A stretch of 64,000 nt of DNA from a virus. The stretch is from the IMG/VR virus record IMGVR_UViG_3300031772_000001, positions 32,001 through 96,000 of that record; one strand, 5' to 3'. The notes below the pieces were generated by a model. That model saw only the letters and a list, made by a program, of their open reading frames with translations, was not told the DNA's origin and made no database searches. Positions within the stretch are counted from its first letter, which is position 1. The number at the start of each line of letters is the position of its first letter. Below are positions 22,755 through 30,211 of the stretch, in pieces. The position numbers and the translations under genes are program-made.

Positions 22755-23282
22755 CTATGATGCAACATCAAAAAATGTAGTATCATTCTCTGCTCCTTTT
22801 CTATCTCTCCGATCCTCCAACATCGAAAAATTCTGTGACTTCATTCTTTCAAAAAATGTCTGATCCTTTAGATGATCATACAAATACGGCATAAACACCT
22901 CTATAAACTCCGCTTGATCCAATTCAATCAAGCTCATCTGCACATCAATCCAATCCGATAAAAGCCGCCACGCCGTCCTCTCTGCTTGTGCGGCAATGCG
23001 ATCCAATGTACCCTCGTGCAGCTTCTTAATCTCCTTCTTCAGCCTTTCCTCCACCCTATCAATACGCGCAGGCAATCTAAATGACATATCACGATTATTT
23101 ACAAATATCACAAAAGCAACACCAACAAGTTTCCCCTTCTCTGCCATCTTCACAACAGTCTTCGCACCAGCAGCTATAAGCCGGTCCTCAATATGCTGCA
23201 CTGACTTACTTGCGGAAACCATCGAAGTGTAATTCTTTATCATCAAGAACCCTTTGTAATAAGCAACCTTTTCTTTACCCAA
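22755..23282 (-). CDS. Conserved phage hypothetical protein
   Basis: KNYTS..S...I...L...GA, FRLPA, QAERTAWR...DW, EVFMPY. Confidence 0.75.
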   Translation of the reverse strand: MGKEKVAYYKGFLMIKNYTSMVSASKSVQHIEDRLIAAGAKTVVKMAEKGKLVGVAFVIFVNNRDMSFRLPARIDRVEERLKKEIKKLHEGTLDRIAAQAERTAWRLLSDWIDVQMSLIELDQAEFIEVFMPYLYDHLKDQTFFERMKSQNFSMLEDRRDRKGAENDTTFFDVAS

Positions 23283-24482
23283 GAAGATACTTCTTTTTCT
23301 TTTGCTTCTGCATTACTCGCATCTATAACAGTCTGCTTCTCCCACCACTCATCAACCTCCTTCGGCACAACAATACCTGCCGCTTCTGCTTCATGCAAAA
23401 CATCAAGTATCTCACGAGGAGGAAGAATATCACAAAGCATTTTCTTTTAAGCTCCAATCCCATTACCAACAGAAGTCAAAACATCAATAGCCCTCTTAAC
23501 TTCCTCTTGTTGCTTTAACACTTCATTAAAATCATCTATATCTCGAACAGAATCATACCTTTTCATAATAAACTCCAACTCGTCATACCTATTCTGAAGG
23601 TATCTAATAGTATGTGGGAATTTCTTGTAATTCATATTTTCCTCTACAACTCCCAAATAAACATGTCCGTACCAAATCGCCTTCCTAAAGTCCCCAAATA
23701 AATTGCTTTTTGAACAGGAGTAACTACGTCCGGGTGAGAATCACTAACACTAAACAAATCAAAGGATGGGTGACTATCTGTAGACTGATTTTCCTTGATA
23801 GCATACTCTGTAGCAACTGCCTTTGAACCTACAGTGTAGATACTGCCAGTAACATTATTCCGAACAAGATACAACATACAAATCCTCCTTTATATTGCCA
23901 GCCAATTACTAATCTCCGTAACAACTGCACTTATCTCCCGAACATCAGCATCATCTACCCTATCCAAAAAATAAAAAGCCTCACAAATAGTCTGCCTCAA
24001 CTCAGCAACCGTAAGCTCTGAAACCTTCTTCTCAACACCATCAAAAACACCAGCAATTACTTCAGTTGGCTTATACCTCAAAGGTATAATAATTCTCTTT
24101 TTGATATTTTTCATAGTTAATCCCTCTTCCTTCTCAGAATCTTCTTGACCTCTTCAATCTCCTGCTTGTTAGGACTCCTATACTGATCATCCAACACCCA
24201 CGCATTCCCATTCTCAAGATCAAAACATCAACCATCCAGCACCACAACACCAATCACACTCGTAGGGAACCTTACACCCACAAGCAACAGTACATGCCTT
24301 ACTCGGCCCCACCGTATGCGCCGCACCATAATCCCGCTCACCCCAAAGTAAACTTGCCTGCTGCATCACAAACCCATAGCCCAACCTCTCACAAATCTGT
24401 TTTACCTGTGCAGTATGCAGCTTATTCATCCCGTCAATCCGACGCTGCAACGCCTCACTCGCCTTTATTTCTTTTTCACTTC

Positions 24483-24869
24483 TCATATTGTAGGCTCCAC
24501 AACAGGGACAATAATTGTAGCTTCACTTACAGCAATGCTAAGACCTTCAACAACAGGCTCAATAACTGGCTCGATAACTGGCTTAACCTCAGCAAGAACT
24601 TCCGGGGCAACTTCTTTTACAGTTTCCTCAACCACAACAGGAGGTGGAGGGTACATCTCATCCCAATTTGACGGCTTCACACCAACAACCTCAATGTCCT
24701 TCTCCTTGTAACCGTTCTTCTTCAGCCACTCCAACGCACGCTCCGATACATCAACAATGGTAGGAAAATCCTTACCACGATGAATCTGTGACACATGCGC
24801 GTAACCCCACGGAGTAGTCAACGTAACCGTTGTGGTCTTAGGCGGCAGCTTCTCTTCCTTCTTAGCCAT
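24483..24869 (-). CDS. Hypothetical protein with Pro/Val/Glu-rich tail
   Basis: 128 aa; GGAG RBS. Confidence 0.55.
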   Translation of the reverse strand: MAKKEEKLPPKTTTVTLTTPWGYAHVSQIHRGKDFPTIVDVSERALEWLKKNGYKEKDIEVVGVKPSNWDEMYPPPPVVVEETVKEVAPEVLAEVKPVIEPVIEPVVEGLSIAVSEATIIVPVVEPTI

Positions 24870-25241
24870 TATTTATCTCCCTGTTCCTATTACAACGTGA
24901 TACAATCCCCACAGAACTGTCAACACAAAAGCCAAAAAATACGAGTCATCCTTACAAACCATAGACTGAATGCCTGTGATGATCCATGACAGGATCACCA
25001 CAGACAAACCAGGATGATTTAACATCGCCCTAACAACATCAAACACCTCACTCATCCTTTTTCTTTTCAAAAACAGGAATACCCTGACAACTCATCTCGT
25101 GCTGCACTCCCTCATGCACCACATGCACCGGCCTACGCTCACCATCAGGAAATTTCAAAAAAGAAACATCCTCCTCCGGGGTGCAATCCCGTTTGCAAAA
25201 ACCACAAATTACTTCTTGCTTGGACATCAAAACCCCCTGTT

Positions 25242-25880
25242 AAATCACCATTACCATACCTGAAATCACCATACAACACCAATACTGGACTCCACATCAC
25301 ATAATTCTACTGCACATCACCACACCTTTACGTCACATGACATCACCCGACCGCACGTTACTATACCATCACCTAACTGGACAAAACCGCACGCCACTCC
25401 ACCGCACCGTCACATGACCACACCGAACGCCACTACACCATACCATAACTATACGATACCGCATAACAACTGCACCCCACCAACACTGAAATCCACTGCA
25501 ATCTACTGTACCAATACCTAACGTCACGCAAAGACACCTTATCTTCACCCAACCTGACAGTAGATAACTCCACGGAACGACACCAAACCAATACTGAACA
25601 TCACTCCAACAGACCGGACCCCACCCAACACAACTCAACCGTTACCGTACTCGACGTAACCCCACAAAACTCTACCATCACCAAATTGTACACAATCTCA
25701 CCGAACTCCACCGTCACATCATTGTACAGTAGATAACTCAACCATCACAATATCGTAACGAAACTCGATGTCACTTAACCCAACTTCACCATAACAGCAC
25801 GGAACGATACTGCACCCCACCGCACCAAACCATACCCTAACAGCACGGTATCACACCCCACGACACCCGACCATTACATT
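25242..25880 (-). ncRNA. Pentamer-periodic array (NNNGT)n punctuated by hexamers; candidate guide-RNA array
   Basis: Parses exactly into 105 pentamers and 19 hexamers (639 bp); all units end in T; 91/105 pentamers end in GT; 16/19 hexamers end in GGT; starts at the stop codon of the Cas7-like gene. Confidence 0.85.
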
Positions 25881-26583
25881 AAACTACTTTTGTCAAGGTG
25901 TAGTCATACCTTCCGTACATGCCTGAGTTACGCCACTGACCAATACCCATATACCGGGAAGAGTAATCCAGCAACGTCCTCAGCAACTCCTCGGTCAGTG
26001 TGAACCTTGGTGTCTCCAAGCACTGAATCTGACAATCAAAATGAGCACCCTCCTCAATCATCTCACTCCGCAACAGAAACACACGCGGCCCATCCTTACC
26101 TATCACACGTACTCCACGCTCCAGAAACCCAATCGGCTTATCTGTAATGAGGGGAATCCTTCTGGGATTGACATTAACTGTCCGTGTCACGTTGGCAAGA
26201 AAAGCAGTTACTTTCTCACCAACCTCAACAACATCATCACCATCACTATCATCACCCTTTTTCTTCTTCTTAGTCACCATCTTACCCGTTGCCAAACCAT
26301 TCAACGTAGACGCGGAATCCTTCAGGGCACCCTTCACAACATACGTATAGAGAAGAGGGTTCCCGTCTGCATCCCGATGAAAGCACGTAGTGCCCTTCTT
26401 CACCTCATCCGGCAACGAATCAATTTCTTCTTGAACCTGCTGCGGAGTAAGGTGTGGGTTCTCTTCCAAAATCTTCTTTATCAGATAGTCAAGGGCAATG
26501 GAATCATTGCCAGGCTGACTACCAAGAACCTGAGAATTGAACACCACACTCAAATCGTACACAGACTCTTTCAACAAAGACAT
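25879..26583 (-). CDS. Stand-alone Cas7/RAMP-like protein
   Basis: N-terminal strand plus VLG; P.L....VKGALKD (cf. RAMP P.IPGSSLKGALR); C-terminal Gly-rich loop GIGQWRNSGMYGRY. Confidence 0.75.
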   Translation of the reverse strand: MSLLKESVYDLSVVFNSQVLGSQPGNDSIALDYLIKKILEENPHLTPQQVQEEIDSLPDEVKKGTTCFHRDADGNPLLYTYVVKGALKDSASTLNGLATGKMVTKKKKKGDDSDGDDVVEVGEKVTAFLANVTRTVNVNPRRIPLITDKPIGFLERGVRVIGKDGPRVFLLRSEMIEEGAHFDCQIQCLETPRFTLTEELLRTLLDYSSRYMGIGQWRNSGMYGRYDYTLTKVV

Positions 26584-26635
26584 ACACCCATCCTTTGATT
26601 AAAGTTAAAATAACACCCATCCAATTCAGACATCC

Positions 26636-26670
26636 TTATAGTATACGTTATCCTCACCAAAAAACATCAG
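26636..26670 (-). promoter_or_regulatory. Putative second-class promoter motif shared with the SSB-like gene
   Basis: CTGATG-N12-GATAACGTATA(C/A)TATA here and at 45863-45897. Confidence 0.6.
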
Positions 26671-26690
26671 CTTGTCTTACTGCTATTAAT

Positions 26691-27278
26691 TTAGGCAACC
26701 AGAGACTCCTCAGACTCATCAACCGCCGGACCACGCACCACCACATAATCTGAAAAAATGTCCTCTATGATCTCAGCCGTAGTCCTCTTGTCATACCAGA
26801 CGTTCAATTCAGTAATACGGTTGTTGCACTCCTTGGCATCATCAATGTATTTCTTAGCCTTACTTAACGCACCACACCCCAAGGCATCAAAAACTTTCCT
26901 CAAAATCGTCGCAGCAGTGTCTTCACCATCAACAAGAACTGTGTTTTCTTTTGAATCTAAAATAAATTCATGGAAAACTCGCTTTGAAAAGACAGGCACC
27001 TCCGACTTTGGCAGCTTCCGAAGATAGTAAAATTCCCGCATCAAGCGTGGAAGATCGGCCTCCCGAACAGACTCCGGGGATAAGCTATACTCTGGCATCA
27101 CCGAATCATCACGCACGAGCTTCTGTATCATCACAAGATATACCTTGTCACCAACGGCAATCTGTGACCAAAAAGGCTTCTGATTCAGTGCCTCAAGCAC
27201 CAAATCGTCCTCAGCAATCAGCATGTACTTCTTATCATAAGACAAGAACCTCTTCTTGAACAACTCAAGATCCTGCAT
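26691..27278 (-). CDS. Hypothetical protein
   Basis: 195-aa ORF. Confidence 0.65.
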   Translation of the reverse strand: MQDLELFKKRFLSYDKKYMLIAEDDLVLEALNQKPFWSQIAVGDKVYLVMIQKLVRDDSVMPEYSLSPESVREADLPRLMREFYYLRKLPKSEVPVFSKRVFHEFILDSKENTVLVDGEDTAATILRKVFDALGCGALSKAKKYIDDAKECNNRITELNVWYDKRTTAEIIEDIFSDYVVVRGPAVDESEESLVA

Positions 27279-28083
27279 TGATTACCCCACTTCTTAGAAC
27301 ACGAATACGTTCTTCTGCTACCTGACAATACTTCTCTTCCTTCTCAATCCCAATAAAATTTCTTTTGGTATTTATACAAGCAATCGCAGTTGTTCCTGAT
27401 CCTATGCAATTATCAAGAACAACATCATTTTCATTTGTGTAAGTACGAATAAGATACTCAAACAATGCTACAGGTTTTTGGGTTGGGTGAAGCCCCGCCT
27501 CCCTCGCATGATATGCTGTTGAAAATTCTACAACAGAACGAGGATACCCGACATCAGTACCTACAGAACGAAAAACCCCTTCCGTAAATTTACCACACGT
27601 CTCAGTCATCACTGTTTTTTGTGCTGCTCTATGACTTGGCTTTACAAAAAATTGTGGGTTATATGGAGGAACACCATAACAAAAAATAAGAATATCCTCA
27701 TGCTGTCGAAGAGGACGCTTTTTTGCATTTAAGAACCCGACAGTATTAGACTTTCTCCAACACATATCATACTTAAAGTTTGAGACATTGCTCATCACTA
27801 AAGCAGAAGTAAATGGCTGTGACGCAGTTAGTACAATGACACCATTACAGATTCTCTCATACTCCTTCCATAACGGCTCAAATGGAATAACTGTGTCCCA
27901 TTTACACTGTGTAGTTCCATAAGGCAAATCACATAACACCATATCAATACTCTTATCAGGTATTAATGGCATTACCTCAAGACAATCACCATGAATTATT
28001 GTATTTATTTGCAACGCACCATCTCCCGTTAGATACTCTCCCCGGCCACGGTGAAGTTGTATTGCCAGCCCTTCTCTGTCCAC
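27265..28083 (-). CDS. Orphan N6-adenine/N4-cytosine DNA methyltransferase (beta-type order)
   Basis: GDCLE, DLPYG, HPTQKPV, VLDNCIGSGTT, FIGIE. Confidence 0.92.
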   Translation of the reverse strand: MDREGLAIQLHRGRGEYLTGDGALQINTIIHGDCLEVMPLIPDKSIDMVLCDLPYGTTQCKWDTVIPFEPLWKEYERICNGVIVLTASQPFTSALVMSNVSNFKYDMCWRKSNTVGFLNAKKRPLRQHEDILIFCYGVPPYNPQFFVKPSHRAAQKTVMTETCGKFTEGVFRSVGTDVGYPRSVVEFSTAYHAREAGLHPTQKPVALFEYLIRTYTNENDVVLDNCIGSGTTAIACINTKRNFIGIEKEEKYCQVAEERIRVLRSGVINAGS

Positions 28084-28425
28084 ACACCAGCAATCAAAAT
28101 ATTCTTAACAGTCGCAGCAACAGAAGAGACATTCAACGAAATCTCATAAACTTCCGGGTCCATACTCACAGTTGTTTCTCTGTCAACTATCACAGAGTAA
28201 AGATACGGTCTACGGTTGTCTGGGTCAATCCAATTAAAGCTGAAAGCAAAACTCTCACGCCCATCCTTGTGTGTCCGTCGTATTACCTTCACCTTATCAA
28301 AGTAATACTTGAAACTCTTATCCATCTCCTCCCATGTCAACAAAGTCATATAGCTCATGTGATGGACAATATCATCACCATCGGAAATATCACATAGAAC
28401 ATCAGTATCCATATTATCCTCTGTT

Positions 28426-28911
28426 CTAAAAGAACTGTTCGTCTCCATTCTCACTACATACGATATGTTCAATCTCATCCTCCAAGTTCGGTAGGATCAT
28501 CCTGGCTTGATGACACCCATACTTGCAGAAATCACACTCCTTAATCCACTTCTCCCAATTATCTGACAGAAGAGATACAAAACTTTCTGGTGATCCCCGG
28601 TCACGAAACCGCTTGAGGAAATCTTCTTTCCTACATTCATCTGGGTACACCAGATAGAAAAATATGCAAGAGTCCAACAAAGCATCACGAACTTCCTTAT
28701 GGGAAGAAACGAAGATGAACTCGTACTTCCCAATATTCTCCTTGATGTGCTGGATATAATTCGCTGGAAAATCTGGATGACGTACTTTAAGTCCAAATTC
28801 TGTAGTCCAGCTAAACAAAGAAGAATCCGAATCCAAAGTTGTTTCATGGTGATTCTTATGATAATAGCTTTTTCCAGTACCAGGAAATGCAGATATTATT
28901 CTAGTTCTCAT
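28426..28911 (-). CDS. P-loop NTPase/kinase-like phage protein
   Basis: IISAFPGTGKS, DSDSS.F, FP.NY. Confidence 0.75.
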   Translation of the reverse strand: MRTRIISAFPGTGKSYYHKNHHETTLDSDSSLFSWTTEFGLKVRHPDFPANYIQHIKENIGKYEFIFVSSHKEVRDALLDSCIFFYLVYPDECRKEDFLKRFRDRGSPESFVSLLSDNWEKWIKECDFCKYGCHQARMILPNLEDEIEHIVCSENGDEQFF

Positions 28912-29098
28912 GTTATCTCCTTTTTCACCTTATCAAGTTCCGTCTCAAACATGTAGACATTCTTTGCTTCACCATTCAAAAAGTACCTTGTCTCGTACTG
29001 CACCCCAGACTTTGAAACCCAGACAGAAACAATGACTCCAATAGTGTCAAGCTCTTTTATTTTAACCCTCTCAAACAAATCAAATGCTGTCTCTACCC

Positions 29099-30211
29099 TC
29101 ATCGTGCAGCCGTCCTATTCCGGTCAACAAGTGATCCACTGGACTTCTGACTTCCTGAAGACATTGCAGGGGCACCATTCCTGAACTGATTATAGACCAA
29201 CCACAACAACGCCTGTAGTGTGGTGTCATTCCTGAAAGAATTAACTGCCCAATCCTGCATCAAAATAGTGAAAAGTTTGAAAATGTCCTGATTCCAAACA
29301 GCACTGACCTTCTTGTAAAGATCCTCAAAGTAAGAAGACCTTATCTTATTGCACGAGATACTGTAGATCAAATTGTTTACAACAAGATATATGTCGTTCT
29401 TAACACACTCCAACATGCATGTAACCAACTCAGCTATTGTCTCAGCAACCACATTCTCATCTGCCACTCGTACCGCCAGCAGGTAATCAAGTACCTTACT
29501 CTCCGCAGACCTGACAGAAGCAAAAAACTTGTCCTTGTCCTCCATCATCGCATACAGATCAAGAAACATGACCGAATCCCGAACGTGCCCCTTACTTGTT
29601 ATTGCTATGTAATAAAGAATCTCGTCAGATATTGTGATGTTTTCTGACTTCACAATCCTTTTCAGATTCTCGGTAATCTCCTCCACAGTCAACGTGCGAA
29701 ACACCAACTCAACTGACCGAGAACGAATAGTATTCTCAATCTTCTCCACATCTGTAGAACAAAAAATTACAAACATGTTCTCAGGTAAATCTTCCAGCAC
29801 CTTTAACAACTGTCCTTGTGCTGGTTTAGATATAAGATGTCCCTCATCAAACACAATCACACGCCAATCACACACTGTAGACGCAGTAAAAAACACCCCC
29901 TTCATTTCCTTAATAGCATCAACATTACCTACATCTCCTGAATCAAACTCTTGGTAGAACGGGACAAACGAAAGATCCGATTGACAAATATCACAAATAC
30001 CACATGGCTTCTTTTCTGAATGTGATTTACAATTCAGACCACGAGCAAGCAAACGGGCAGATGTTGTTTTTCCTGTTCCAAAATCTCCAGACATAACAAG
30101 ACATCTTGGCGCATTGATAGGATTCCGTATGATGGACCTAAGAATCTCCACAGGAGCATCTTGCCCGTAAAGCTCATCAAATATTCTGGACCTATACTGC
30201 TGTGTGAACAT
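29099..30211 (-). CDS. dnaX: DNA polymerase III clamp loader gamma/tau
   Basis: QYR...F....GQ, GDFGTGKTTSAR, LNC..PCGICDIC, DEGH, TIRSR, G.VRD. Confidence 0.9.
   Translation of the reverse strand: MFTQQYRSRIFDELYGQDAPVEILRSIIRNPINAPRCLVMSGDFGTGKTTSARLLARGLNCKSHSEKKPCGICDICQSDLSFVPFYQEFDSGDVGNVDAIKEMKGVFFTASTVCDWRVIVFDEGHLISKPAQGQLLKVLEDLPENMFVIFCSTDVEKIENTIRSRSVELVFRTLTVEEITENLKRIVKSENITISDEILYYIAITSKGHVRDSVMFLDLYAMMEDKDKFFASVRSAESKVLDYLLAVRVADENVVAETIAELVTCMLECVKNDIYLVVNNLIYSISCNKIRSSYFEDLYKKVSAVWNQDIFKLFTILMQDWAVNSFRNDTTLQALLWLVYNQFRNGAPAMSSGSQKSSGSLVDRNRTAAR

What the first reader, a model, noticed from the sequence alone, without database searches (positions are those of the whole stretch)
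25242..25880. Hexamer punctuation divides the array into about 16 guide-sized segments
Seen: the 5-nt register is broken by 6-mers (AATGGT, TATGGT, GATGGT, GACGGT, AACGGT, ATTGGT, GTTGGT, AAAGGT; 16/19 end in GGT), mostly every 5-9 pentamers, giving segments of about 31-51 nt. Inference: the hexamers mark processing sites or filament boundaries and play the role of CRISPR repeats, so the array would encode many separate guides.
Basis: partly seen in the sequence, partly recalled or inferred. Interest (0 to 1): 0.8.

Follow-up and report, generated by a model that had tools for sequence, protein, structure and literature searches.

The report
Hexamer-punctuated VIPR guide-RNA array
A 639-base stretch in a 168-kb phage is a guide-RNA array of a VIPR system (a CRISPR-related system first described in 2026); six-base units split its five-base rhythm into about 17 short guides, making it a clear new example of a known kind.

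Summary
On the minus strand, 25880-25243 is a run of about 108 NNNGT pentamers. It is broken by 17 NNNGGT hexamers, two further +1 slips without GG and one tetramer-plus-hexamer pair with no net shift. The 16 hexamer-closed blocks after the opening 11-nt block are 26-51 nt. Hexamer spacing is far more regular than chance, and every hexamer carries GG.

The array starts right after the stop codon of a 234-aa Cas7-like RAMP gene (25879-26583, minus strand). This pairing matches VIPR systems (bioRxiv 10.64898/2026.04.26.720920). That preprint lists YNNNG repeats and tail-less "staggered" arrays, which it did not confirm by RNA sequencing.

- The same grammar holds in 9 divergent arrays and in 156 of 162 further loci.
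- Those loci hold 1,816 hexamers, 98% ending GG-C/A/T, against 69 tetramers. Blocks are 5k+1 nt long.
- Related arrays differ by gain, loss and reshuffling of whole hexamer-bounded blocks. Homology breakpoints are about 5 times denser at hexamers than at GG-ending pentamers.

So the hexamers delimit independent guide modules. RNA ends, cleavage and targets remain untested, and no target was found. This scan noted punctuated VIPR arrays earlier in other genomes. Verdict: real and well supported, a new member of a known kind.

The parts
25879..26583 (-). vipr-like gene, 234 aa: a stand-alone Cas7-like RAMP with the C-terminal G-rich loop GIGQWRNSGMYGRY
   Evidence: AF2 model has pLDDT 89. Foldseek top hits are type VII Cas7, Csm3 and Cas7-11, E 3e-8, prob 1.0. 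The family profile hits PDB Cas7 at 1.8e-6. hhalign to phiSUSP1 Vipr gives prob 59%, E 9e-5.
25243..25880 (-). vrRNA-type array: about 108 NNNGT pentamers plus 17 NNNGGT hexamers, in an 11-nt opening block and 16 hexamer-closed blocks of 26-51 nt
25870..25875 (-). hexamer 1, AATGGT; lies a few nt after the vipr stop codon
25834..25839 (-). hexamer 2, TAGGGT
25788..25793 (-). hexamer 3, TATGGT
25741..25746 (-). hexamer 4, GATGGT
25710..25715 (-). hexamer 5, GACGGT
25674..25679 (-). hexamer 6, GATGGT
25638..25643 (-). hexamer 7, AACGGT
25587..25592 (-). hexamer 8, ATTGGT
25536..25541 (-). hexamer 9, TAAGGT
25510..25515 (-). hexamer 10, ATTGGT
25479..25484 (-). hexamer 11, GTTGGT
25442..25447 (-). 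hexamer 12, TATGGT
25406..25411 (-). hexamer 13, GACGGT
25365..25370 (-). hexamer 14, GATGGT
25324..25329 (-). hexamer 15, AAAGGT
25278..25283 (-). hexamer 16, ATTGGT
25247..25252 (-). hexamer 17, AATGGT; last one, followed by 2-4 degenerate units
25752..25752 (-). extra base giving a +1 shift without GG (TACGA-T-ATTGT); atypical, meaning unknown
25468..25468 (-). extra base giving a +1 shift without GG (GCAGT-T-GTTAT); atypical, meaning unknown
25048..25230 (-). 60-aa ORF with a CxxC motif directly after the array on the same strand. It is not conserved next to vipr in relatives, so it is not shown to belong to the system.
   Evidence: no Pfam or PHROG hit
25074..25086 (-). first terminator-like hairpin with a T-run downstream of the array. 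None lies between vipr and the array, so vipr and array are probably one transcript.

Best explanation
The locus is a phage VIPR system with two parts: a single Cas7-like RAMP protein (Vipr) and, co-transcribed directly downstream, a tail-less array of guide RNAs.

Each 5-nt unit is N-N-N-G-Y, the preprint's 'YNNNG' repeat class. By analogy with the published SUSP1 structures, one Vipr protomer binds each unit, holds the constant G-Y and displays the variable bases for gapped pairing with double-stranded DNA.

About every 5-10 units one unit is 6 nt long and always reads NNN-GG-Y. Its first bases are weakly conserved (consensus .ATGGT here). This +1 shift puts the next G-Y out of step. A filament growing in 5-nt steps must therefore stop or restart there.

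The long transcript is thus parsed into about 17 independent ribonucleoprotein guides of 5-10 protomers, roughly one to two filament turns. The exposed junction is probably cut to release them. In this role the hexamers do the job of CRISPR repeats with only 6 nt.

Shown here:
- the grammar and its regularity;
- its conservation across the protein family;
- block-wise evolution of related arrays;
- the RAMP fold.

Inferred:
- one protomer per unit;
- filament stop at the hexamer;
- cleavage;
- DNA targeting of competing elements.
For: 1. The grammar in the window is real and non-random.

2. The same grammar holds in 9 divergent homologous arrays. Spacing CV is 0.14-0.39. The permutation count was 0 of 5,000 in eight arrays and p = 0.045 in the short L009 array. 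GG occurs in nearly every hexamer (154 of 155) against 3-33% G at that position in pentamers. Only two tetramers were called.

3. In 156 of 162 further loci there are 9,966 pentamers, 1,816 hexamers (98% ending GG-C/A/T) and 69 tetramers. The commonest gap is 6 units. Block lengths fall on 5k+1: 26, 31 and 36 nt.

4. Homology breakpoints between related arrays cluster at hexamers. 78% of right ends lie within -1 to +8 nt of a hexamer start, against about 32% expected. There are 0.47 breakpoints per hexamer, 0.09 per GG-ending pentamer and 0.06 per other pentamer.

5. Related arrays are different orders and subsets of the same blocks. That is incompatible with one long contiguous guide.

6. Block content is entirely different between this phage and its 55%-identical relative, while the punctuation is kept.

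7. The protein is a Cas7-like RAMP with a weak profile match to phiSUSP1 Vipr.

8. The literature supports the frame. It reports VIPR, YNNNG repeats and 'staggered' arrays where one vrRNA's end marks the next one's start. It also reports one protomer per repeat, with vrRNA length setting filament length.
Against: - Transcript ends, cleavage and protomer counts are untested.
- No DNA target was found for any block under several pairing rules, so 'guide' is by analogy.
- Breakpoint clustering could partly reflect recombination at the only recurrent short motif. The 5-fold excess over GG-pentamers argues against GGY microhomology alone.
- Two +1 shifts in the window lack GG.
- In many related arrays the first hexamer is not at the array start. 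Arrays are therefore not always hexamer-flanked on both sides.
- I could not see fig. S18 of the preprint, so equating 'staggered' with this hexamer grammar is my reading of its legend.
Confidence: 0.72

Rival explanations
1. The array is one long guide or scaffold. Vipr forms a continuous filament over the whole array, and the extra base about once per helical turn is a structural 'stutter' that relieves strain. It is not a boundary, and no separate guides are made.
For: The commonest spacing of 6 units equals the six subunits per turn reported for the relaxed SUSP1 filament. The structural preprint says some natural vrRNAs reach up to 30 repeats.
Against: Spacing varies from 4 to 10 units within single arrays, which does not fit a fixed per-turn need. 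Related arrays reshuffle, gain and lose blocks, which would destroy a contiguous long target. The canonical SUSP1 filament needs no such stutter over 12 units.
Confidence: 0.1
2. The hexamers matter at the DNA level, not the RNA level. They are scars or recombination sites of the process that adds or exchanges blocks, like cassette junctions. RNA parsing is done by something else or not at all.
For: Breakpoints of homology concentrate at hexamers, and arrays look like cassette strings. The hexamer with its flanks is the only recurrent motif available for microhomology.
Against: A pure DNA junction would not need to add exactly one base to a 5-nt RNA register. It would also not need GG at the positions the published structures assign to protein contacts. 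GG-ending pentamers share the GGY motif but carry 5-fold fewer breakpoints. This reading does not exclude the main one; both may hold.
Confidence: 0.1
3. The hexamers are neutral slippage errors, G to GG, accumulating in a degenerate pentamer repeat.
For: G-to-GG slippage would by itself give NNNGGT.
Against: Spacing is far more regular than random placement (0 of 5,000 permutations in 8 of 9 arrays). Shifts are +1 only: 1,816 hexamers against 69 tetramers. The same spacing is kept in arrays with no shared sequence.
Confidence: 0.02

Closest known systems
VIPR systems with alternative YNNNG repeats and 'staggered' vrRNA arrays (bioRxiv 10.64898/2026.04.26.720920, text and legend of fig. S18; also 10.64898/2026.04.26.720927)
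   Same: A phage-encoded stand-alone RAMP next to a tandem 5-nt-periodic array. G and Y are constant and the other bases hypervariable. There is no structured tail between guides, and one guide abuts the next with a 1-nt offset.
   Different: The accessible text gives no hexamer rule. The NNNGGY delimiter, the 5k+1 block lengths and the block-wise shuffling are worked out here. The preprint did not confirm staggered arrays by RNA sequencing. No conserved vap gene is seen beside this clade's vipr. I could not view the figure or tables, so identity with their class, and the type number, are unverified.
Type II VIPR of Escherichia phage phiSUSP1 (KT454805, Vipr at 28474-28061 region: gene 28474-29061; arrays at 27.5-28.0 kb)
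   Same: A RAMP protein with the same C-terminal G-loop (GVGDWRPRFGRF against GIGQWRNSGMYGRY). The RNA has a 5-nt rhythm ending in G-Y.
   Different: SUSP1 units are NN-GGT with all three constant bases. Each vrRNA has 9-16 units and its own conserved 3' pseudoknot tail and spacer sequence. Here only G-Y is constant, guides are 5-10 units, and a single 6-nt unit replaces the tail. Protein similarity is marginal (hhalign prob 59%).
CRISPR arrays and Class 1 Cas7 backbones (type III Csm3, type VII Cas7)
   Same: The Cas7-like fold. The logic is a variable guide module between short constant delimiters, with arrays evolving by gain and loss of whole modules.
   Different: The rhythm is 5 nt with sequence-specific G-Y contacts, not 6 nt with no sequence preference. 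The delimiter is 6 nt rather than a 23-50-nt palindromic or structured repeat. There are no cas1/cas2, Cas6 or other cas genes among the neighbours scanned.

Membership tests
VIPR (Vipr + vrRNA) | Effector is a minimal RAMP with an RRM core, thumb hairpin and glycine-rich loop | tested here: met
   AF2 pLDDT 89. Foldseek hits to Cas7/Csm3/Cas7-11 at prob 1.0, E down to 3e-8. PDB profile hit to type VII Cas7 at 1.8e-6 over the G-loop. G213, Q216, W217, N219, S220 and G224 are invariant.
VIPR (Vipr + vrRNA) | Sequence homology to a founding Vipr protein | tested here: inconclusive
   Profile against phiSUSP1 ALH47069.1: hhalign prob 58.8%, E 9.4e-5, 171 columns including the G-loop. tblastn finds no SUSP1 match at E <= 1. 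The reference X1U2U4 was not available here.
VIPR (Vipr + vrRNA) | Adjacent tandem pentanucleotide repeats with constant G/Y and hypervariable N (GGY/NN, or the listed variants NNNGG, YNNNG, NNNNG) | tested here: met
   Pentamer composition is G 86% at position 4 and T 97% at position 5, with positions 1-3 near uniform. The array is conserved next to the gene in 165 of 171 relatives. It matches 'YNNNG' in the preprint's methods.
VIPR (Vipr + vrRNA) | Non-CRISPR, mostly viral context | tested here: met
   The record is a 167,660-bp IMG/VR virus with terminal repeats. Neighbours are a DNA methyltransferase, a clamp loader and unknowns, with no cas genes among 10 ORFs scanned. Relatives lie on phage contigs.
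VIPR (Vipr + vrRNA) | A vap accessory gene in the locus (described as 'typical', not universal) | tested here: not met
   None of six flanking ORFs of the window (excluding vipr) has a homologue near vipr in 170 related loci at tblastn E <= 1e-3.
VIPR (Vipr + vrRNA) | The RNA is expressed, binds Vipr and directs gapped pairing to DNA (1-nt skip rule) | tested here: inconclusive
   No RNA data. No target was found above shuffled controls, either locally or in IMG/VR and GTDB pattern scans.
Type II VIPR (SUSP1-like) | Each vrRNA carries a conserved structured 3' tail (pseudoknot) after 9-16 YNNGG units | tested here: not met
   No recurrent sequence other than the hexamer lies between blocks. 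The SUSP1 tail is plainly visible for comparison.
'Staggered' vrRNA arrays (fig. S18 of the preprint) | Guides abut without tails, and boundaries are offset by 1 nt | tested here: inconclusive
   A +1 register shift at every boundary is shown. Only the figure legend could be read, so equivalence is my reading.
CRISPR array | Direct repeats of about 23-50 nt alternating with spacers of similar size, with cas genes nearby | tested here: not met
   Tandem Repeats Finder reports no such repeats in 23000-28000, and Rfam gathering-threshold hits in the window are three tRNAs only. The delimiter is 6 nt.

The most novel reading that the evidence does not exclude
In this VIPR clade the effector's own 5-nt stepping is the ruler. 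A single extra base, with GG, is enough to end one filament and start the next. A long transcript is therefore parsed into guides with no structured repeat, no ribozyme and no dedicated processing nuclease. That would be the simplest array-parsing signal known in an RNA-guided system, and a plausible forerunner of the CRISPR repeat. The blocks also turn over like spacers, which hints at an unknown way of acquiring or exchanging guides.
Probability: 0.3. Interest if true: 0.75.

Novelty: new member of a known kind. Interest (0 to 1): 0.45.

Why it matters
VIPR was described only in 2026, and the experimentally characterised examples use guides with a structured 3' tail. How tail-less arrays are cut into guides is open: the preprint names 'staggered' arrays but did not confirm them by RNA sequencing.

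This window and about 165 relatives give an explicit, testable rule. The delimiter is NNN-GG-Y, the shift is always +1, and blocks are 5k+1 nt long. Comparative evidence shows the blocks are independent, exchangeable modules.

The rule makes these arrays machine-annotatable. It predicts the RNA ends and the filament sizes (5-10 protomers). It also suggests very compact multiplexed guide arrays, at about 31 nt per guide, for engineering.

Tried and rejected
1. DNA similarity of the array to GenBank phages found no match. Rfam shows only tRNAs in the window.

3. Near-identical array pairs (L004/5, L006/7, L009/10, L011/12, L013/14) were identical or differed by one base. They gave no information on turnover.

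4. Target search by pairing rule:
- Rules tried were NNx, xNN, NxN, NNN, NNNx, NN, NNxx and NNxxx.
- They were run against the phage's own genome and about 1.1 Mb of related phage loci.
- No excess over shuffled controls appeared.

5. Pattern scans for window blocks:
- Three window blocks (8, 2 and 15) under NNx gave 0 hits in IMG/VR.
- Block 8 gave 0 hits in GTDB genomes.

6. Scans with the commonest gut-phage block:
- As contiguous triplets it gave 0 hits.
- One cluster of 19 gut-phage contigs matches 14/14 fixed positions plus 5/7 third positions at an 'IRKACFE' coding site.
- The control also shows a 9-fold cluster, and no other block converges on those loci.
- It is kept as a lead only.

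7. Codon-tracking test on related blocks:
- Substitution rates are equal at N1, N2 and N3.
- There is no clear excess of synonymous changes beyond what the observed transition bias would give.
- This gives no support for or against a three-base pairing rule.

8. The zero variation of the hexamer GG among related blocks is circular with my block definition, so it is not used.

9. The idea that arrays always begin and end with a hexamer was rejected. It is true for 58 of 136 unique arrays at the start and for few at the end.

10. Readings considered from the sequence alone and dropped once the RAMP link and the literature were found: T4-type primase template sites (NNNGT gives ACNNN primers), TRAP-like or CsrA-like protein sponges, Rho utilisation sites on the opposite strand, and a pentapeptide-repeat ORF.

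Full report
**What is there.**
Read on the minus strand, window 25880-25243 is a G/T-rich run with no long ORF. GT recurs every 5 nt 67 times and every 6 nt 16 times. No other part of the window comes close in lag-5 periodicity.

A register-tracking parse gives:
- about 108 NNNGT pentamers;
- 17 hexamers, every one NNNGGT (coordinates under 'parts');
- two further +1 slips without GG, at 25752 and 25468;
- one tetramer-plus-hexamer pair with no net shift.

The array opens with an 11-nt block (AATGT + AATGGT). After it come 16 hexamer-closed blocks of 26-51 nt.

**Is it more than chance?**
Hexamer gaps are 5-10 units, with CV 0.19. None of 5,000 random placements was as regular. G at position -3 is found in 16/16 hexamers against 35/108 pentamers (p = 1.3e-7).

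**Context.**
- The window is part of a 167,660-bp IMG/VR phage record with terminal repeats.
- Genes here run on the minus strand.
- The array begins a few bases after the stop codon of a 234-aa ORF (25879-26583). A 60-aa ORF follows it.
- The first terminator-like site is at 25086-25074, and none lies between gene and array.
- The ORF has no Pfam or PHROG family.

The protein's AlphaFold model (pLDDT 89) matches Cas7-type RAMPs at Foldseek probability 1.0: type VII Cas7, Csm3 and Cas7-11. A profile of 25 homologues hits PDB Cas7 through the C-terminal glycine-rich loop.

**What it is.**
[quoted passage not shown] It describes VIPR: a phage-borne ancestral RAMP (Vipr) plus vrRNAs made of pentamer repeats (GGY/NN). 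These direct gapped pairing to DNA and silence competing elements.

Details of that work relevant here:
- Its methods list alternative repeats NNNGG, YNNNG and NNNNG. The window's units, written from the Y, are YNNNG.
[quoted passage not shown] It states that only the ribozyme-interspersed and single-vrRNA architectures were confirmed by RNA sequencing.
- The companion structural preprint shows one protomer per repeat, GGY held between adjacent protomers, and filament length set by vrRNA length.

I fetched phiSUSP1 (KT454805) for comparison:
- Its arrays are NNGGT units followed by a conserved structured tail.
- Its Vipr aligns with my family profile at hhalign probability 59%, E 9e-5, including the G-loop. 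This is a weak but consistent link.

**Testing the punctuation idea.**

1. *Nine divergent homologous loci* (protein identity 28-55% to the window). All carry an array directly downstream with the same grammar:
- hexamers every 4-10 units, spacing CV 0.14-0.39;
- 0 of 5,000 permutations as regular in eight arrays, and p = 0.045 in the short L009 array;
- GG in nearly every hexamer (154 of 155), against 3-33% G at that position in pentamers;
- only two tetramers.

2. *About 160 more loci* from profile-guided scans of metagenome and IMG/VR contigs. Of these, 156 of 162 have arrays. Together they hold 9,966 pentamers, 1,816 hexamers (98% ending GG-C/A/T) and 69 tetramers. The commonest gap is 6 units, and block lengths fall on 5k+1: 26, 31 and 36 nt.

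3. *Related human-gut phage arrays.* The points where homology between two arrays ends pile up at hexamers:
- 78% of right ends lie within -1 to +8 nt of a hexamer start, against about 32% expected.
- There are 0.47 breakpoints per hexamer, 0.09 per GG-ending pentamer and 0.06 per other pentamer.
- GGY microhomology alone therefore does not explain the clustering.

Written as strings of block identities, these arrays are different subsets and orders of the same blocks. An example is 83-2-14-13-9-40-41-... against 83-2-14-13-9-213-214-6-38. That is how CRISPR spacers behave. It is incompatible with one long contiguous guide.

4. *The closest relative.* The window's blocks share nothing with those of its 55%-identical relative, although the punctuation is the same.

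**Mechanism proposed.**
One protomer binds each 5-nt unit through G-Y. The 6-nt unit puts the next G-Y out of step, so a cooperative filament ends or restarts there.

The transcript thus carries about 17 short filaments of 5-10 protomers. The published relaxed filament has six subunits per turn. The junctions are probably cleaved to release separate guides.

Weak extra conservation sits at the boundary, with consensus .ATGGT in the window and AAxGGC-A in relatives. This suggests the hexamer is also a preferred start or stop site.

All of this paragraph is inference from anatomy, comparative data and the SUSP1 structures. No RNA ends, protomer counts or targets were obtained.

**What failed.**
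- No DNA target was found for window blocks or for common gut-phage blocks under eight pairing rules. This covered local searches and capped scans of IMG/VR and GTDB.
- One match is not distinguishable from chance: a gut-phage block against an 'IRKACFE' coding site in 19 gut-phage contigs.
- The number of read bases per unit (two or three) is unresolved.
- No conserved accessory (vap) gene accompanies vipr in this clade.

**Comparison and novelty.**
The system is a member of the VIPR kind. It fits the YNNNG repeat class and, as far as the legend lets me judge, the 'staggered' array architecture.

It differs from the characterised type II systems in four ways: it has no tail, only two constant bases, shorter guides and no evident vap.

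I did not find three things in the accessible text of the three VIPR preprints or the Evo-PIN preprint:
- the explicit delimiter rule;
- the 5k+1 block lengths;
- the block-wise turnover.

I could not read their figures or tables.

Earlier notes of this scan report punctuated VIPR arrays in other genomes, so the scan has seen this kind before on other DNA.

**Verdict.**
Real, well supported, a new member of a known kind. It has a useful, testable grammar for how tail-less VIPR arrays are parsed.

Noticed in passing
window 25739-25726 and 25570-25557 (minus strand): The 14-nt block GAGTTATCTACTGT occurs in register in two different blocks (4 and 8). Both copies include the off-consensus unit TATCT. 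This suggests duplication within the array rather than convergence.
   Followed up: partly
window 25879-26583, residues about 98-123 of the protein: The window's Vipr carries a lysine-rich then acidic insertion (KKKKKGDDSDGDD...), and its 55% relative a shorter one. It lies in the predicted beta-hairpin (thumb region) and is absent from the 23 other homologues aligned.
   Followed up: no
L104, L142, L170, L060 and about 100 other human-gut phage loci, directly after the vipr stop: In the abundant gut-phage clade (genomes of about 58 kb), the fifth base of ordinary units relaxes to C/A/T while hexamers stay GGC/GGA. The array runs straight into the ribosome-binding site of a small hydrophobic protein gene.
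   Followed up: partly
L178, L188, L238 and 16 other IMG/VR gut-phage loci (site ATTAGAAAGGCTTGTTTTGA): This is a candidate target of the commonest gut-phage block (ATG AGA AAA GCT TGT TTT GAA, present in 20 arrays). It matches 14/14 first-two bases and 5/7 third bases, in frame with the peptide IRKACFE of a conserved gene in contigs of about 45-165 kb. It is not significant against a shuffled control.
   Followed up: partly
L175 (KT454805) 27499-29511: This is the phiSUSP1 VIPR locus as deposited. Two 'hypothetical protein' genes (28031-28471 and 28474-29061, minus strand) are flanked by 450-530-nt unannotated gaps. The downstream gap (27499-28031), which was read, holds the NNGGT arrays with their tails.
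   Followed up: partly
window 27265-28083 and 29099-30211 (minus strand): An N6/N4 DNA methyltransferase (PF01555) and a clamp-loader subunit lie upstream of the VIPR locus. A 195-aa ORF of unknown function (26691-27278) sits between the methyltransferase and vipr. It has no homologue near vipr in relatives.
   Followed up: partly
L004 5160-5205: In a 42%-identical relative the array ends at a strong intrinsic terminator (GC-rich hairpin plus T-run). This supports the view that the array is transcribed from the vipr side.
   Followed up: no
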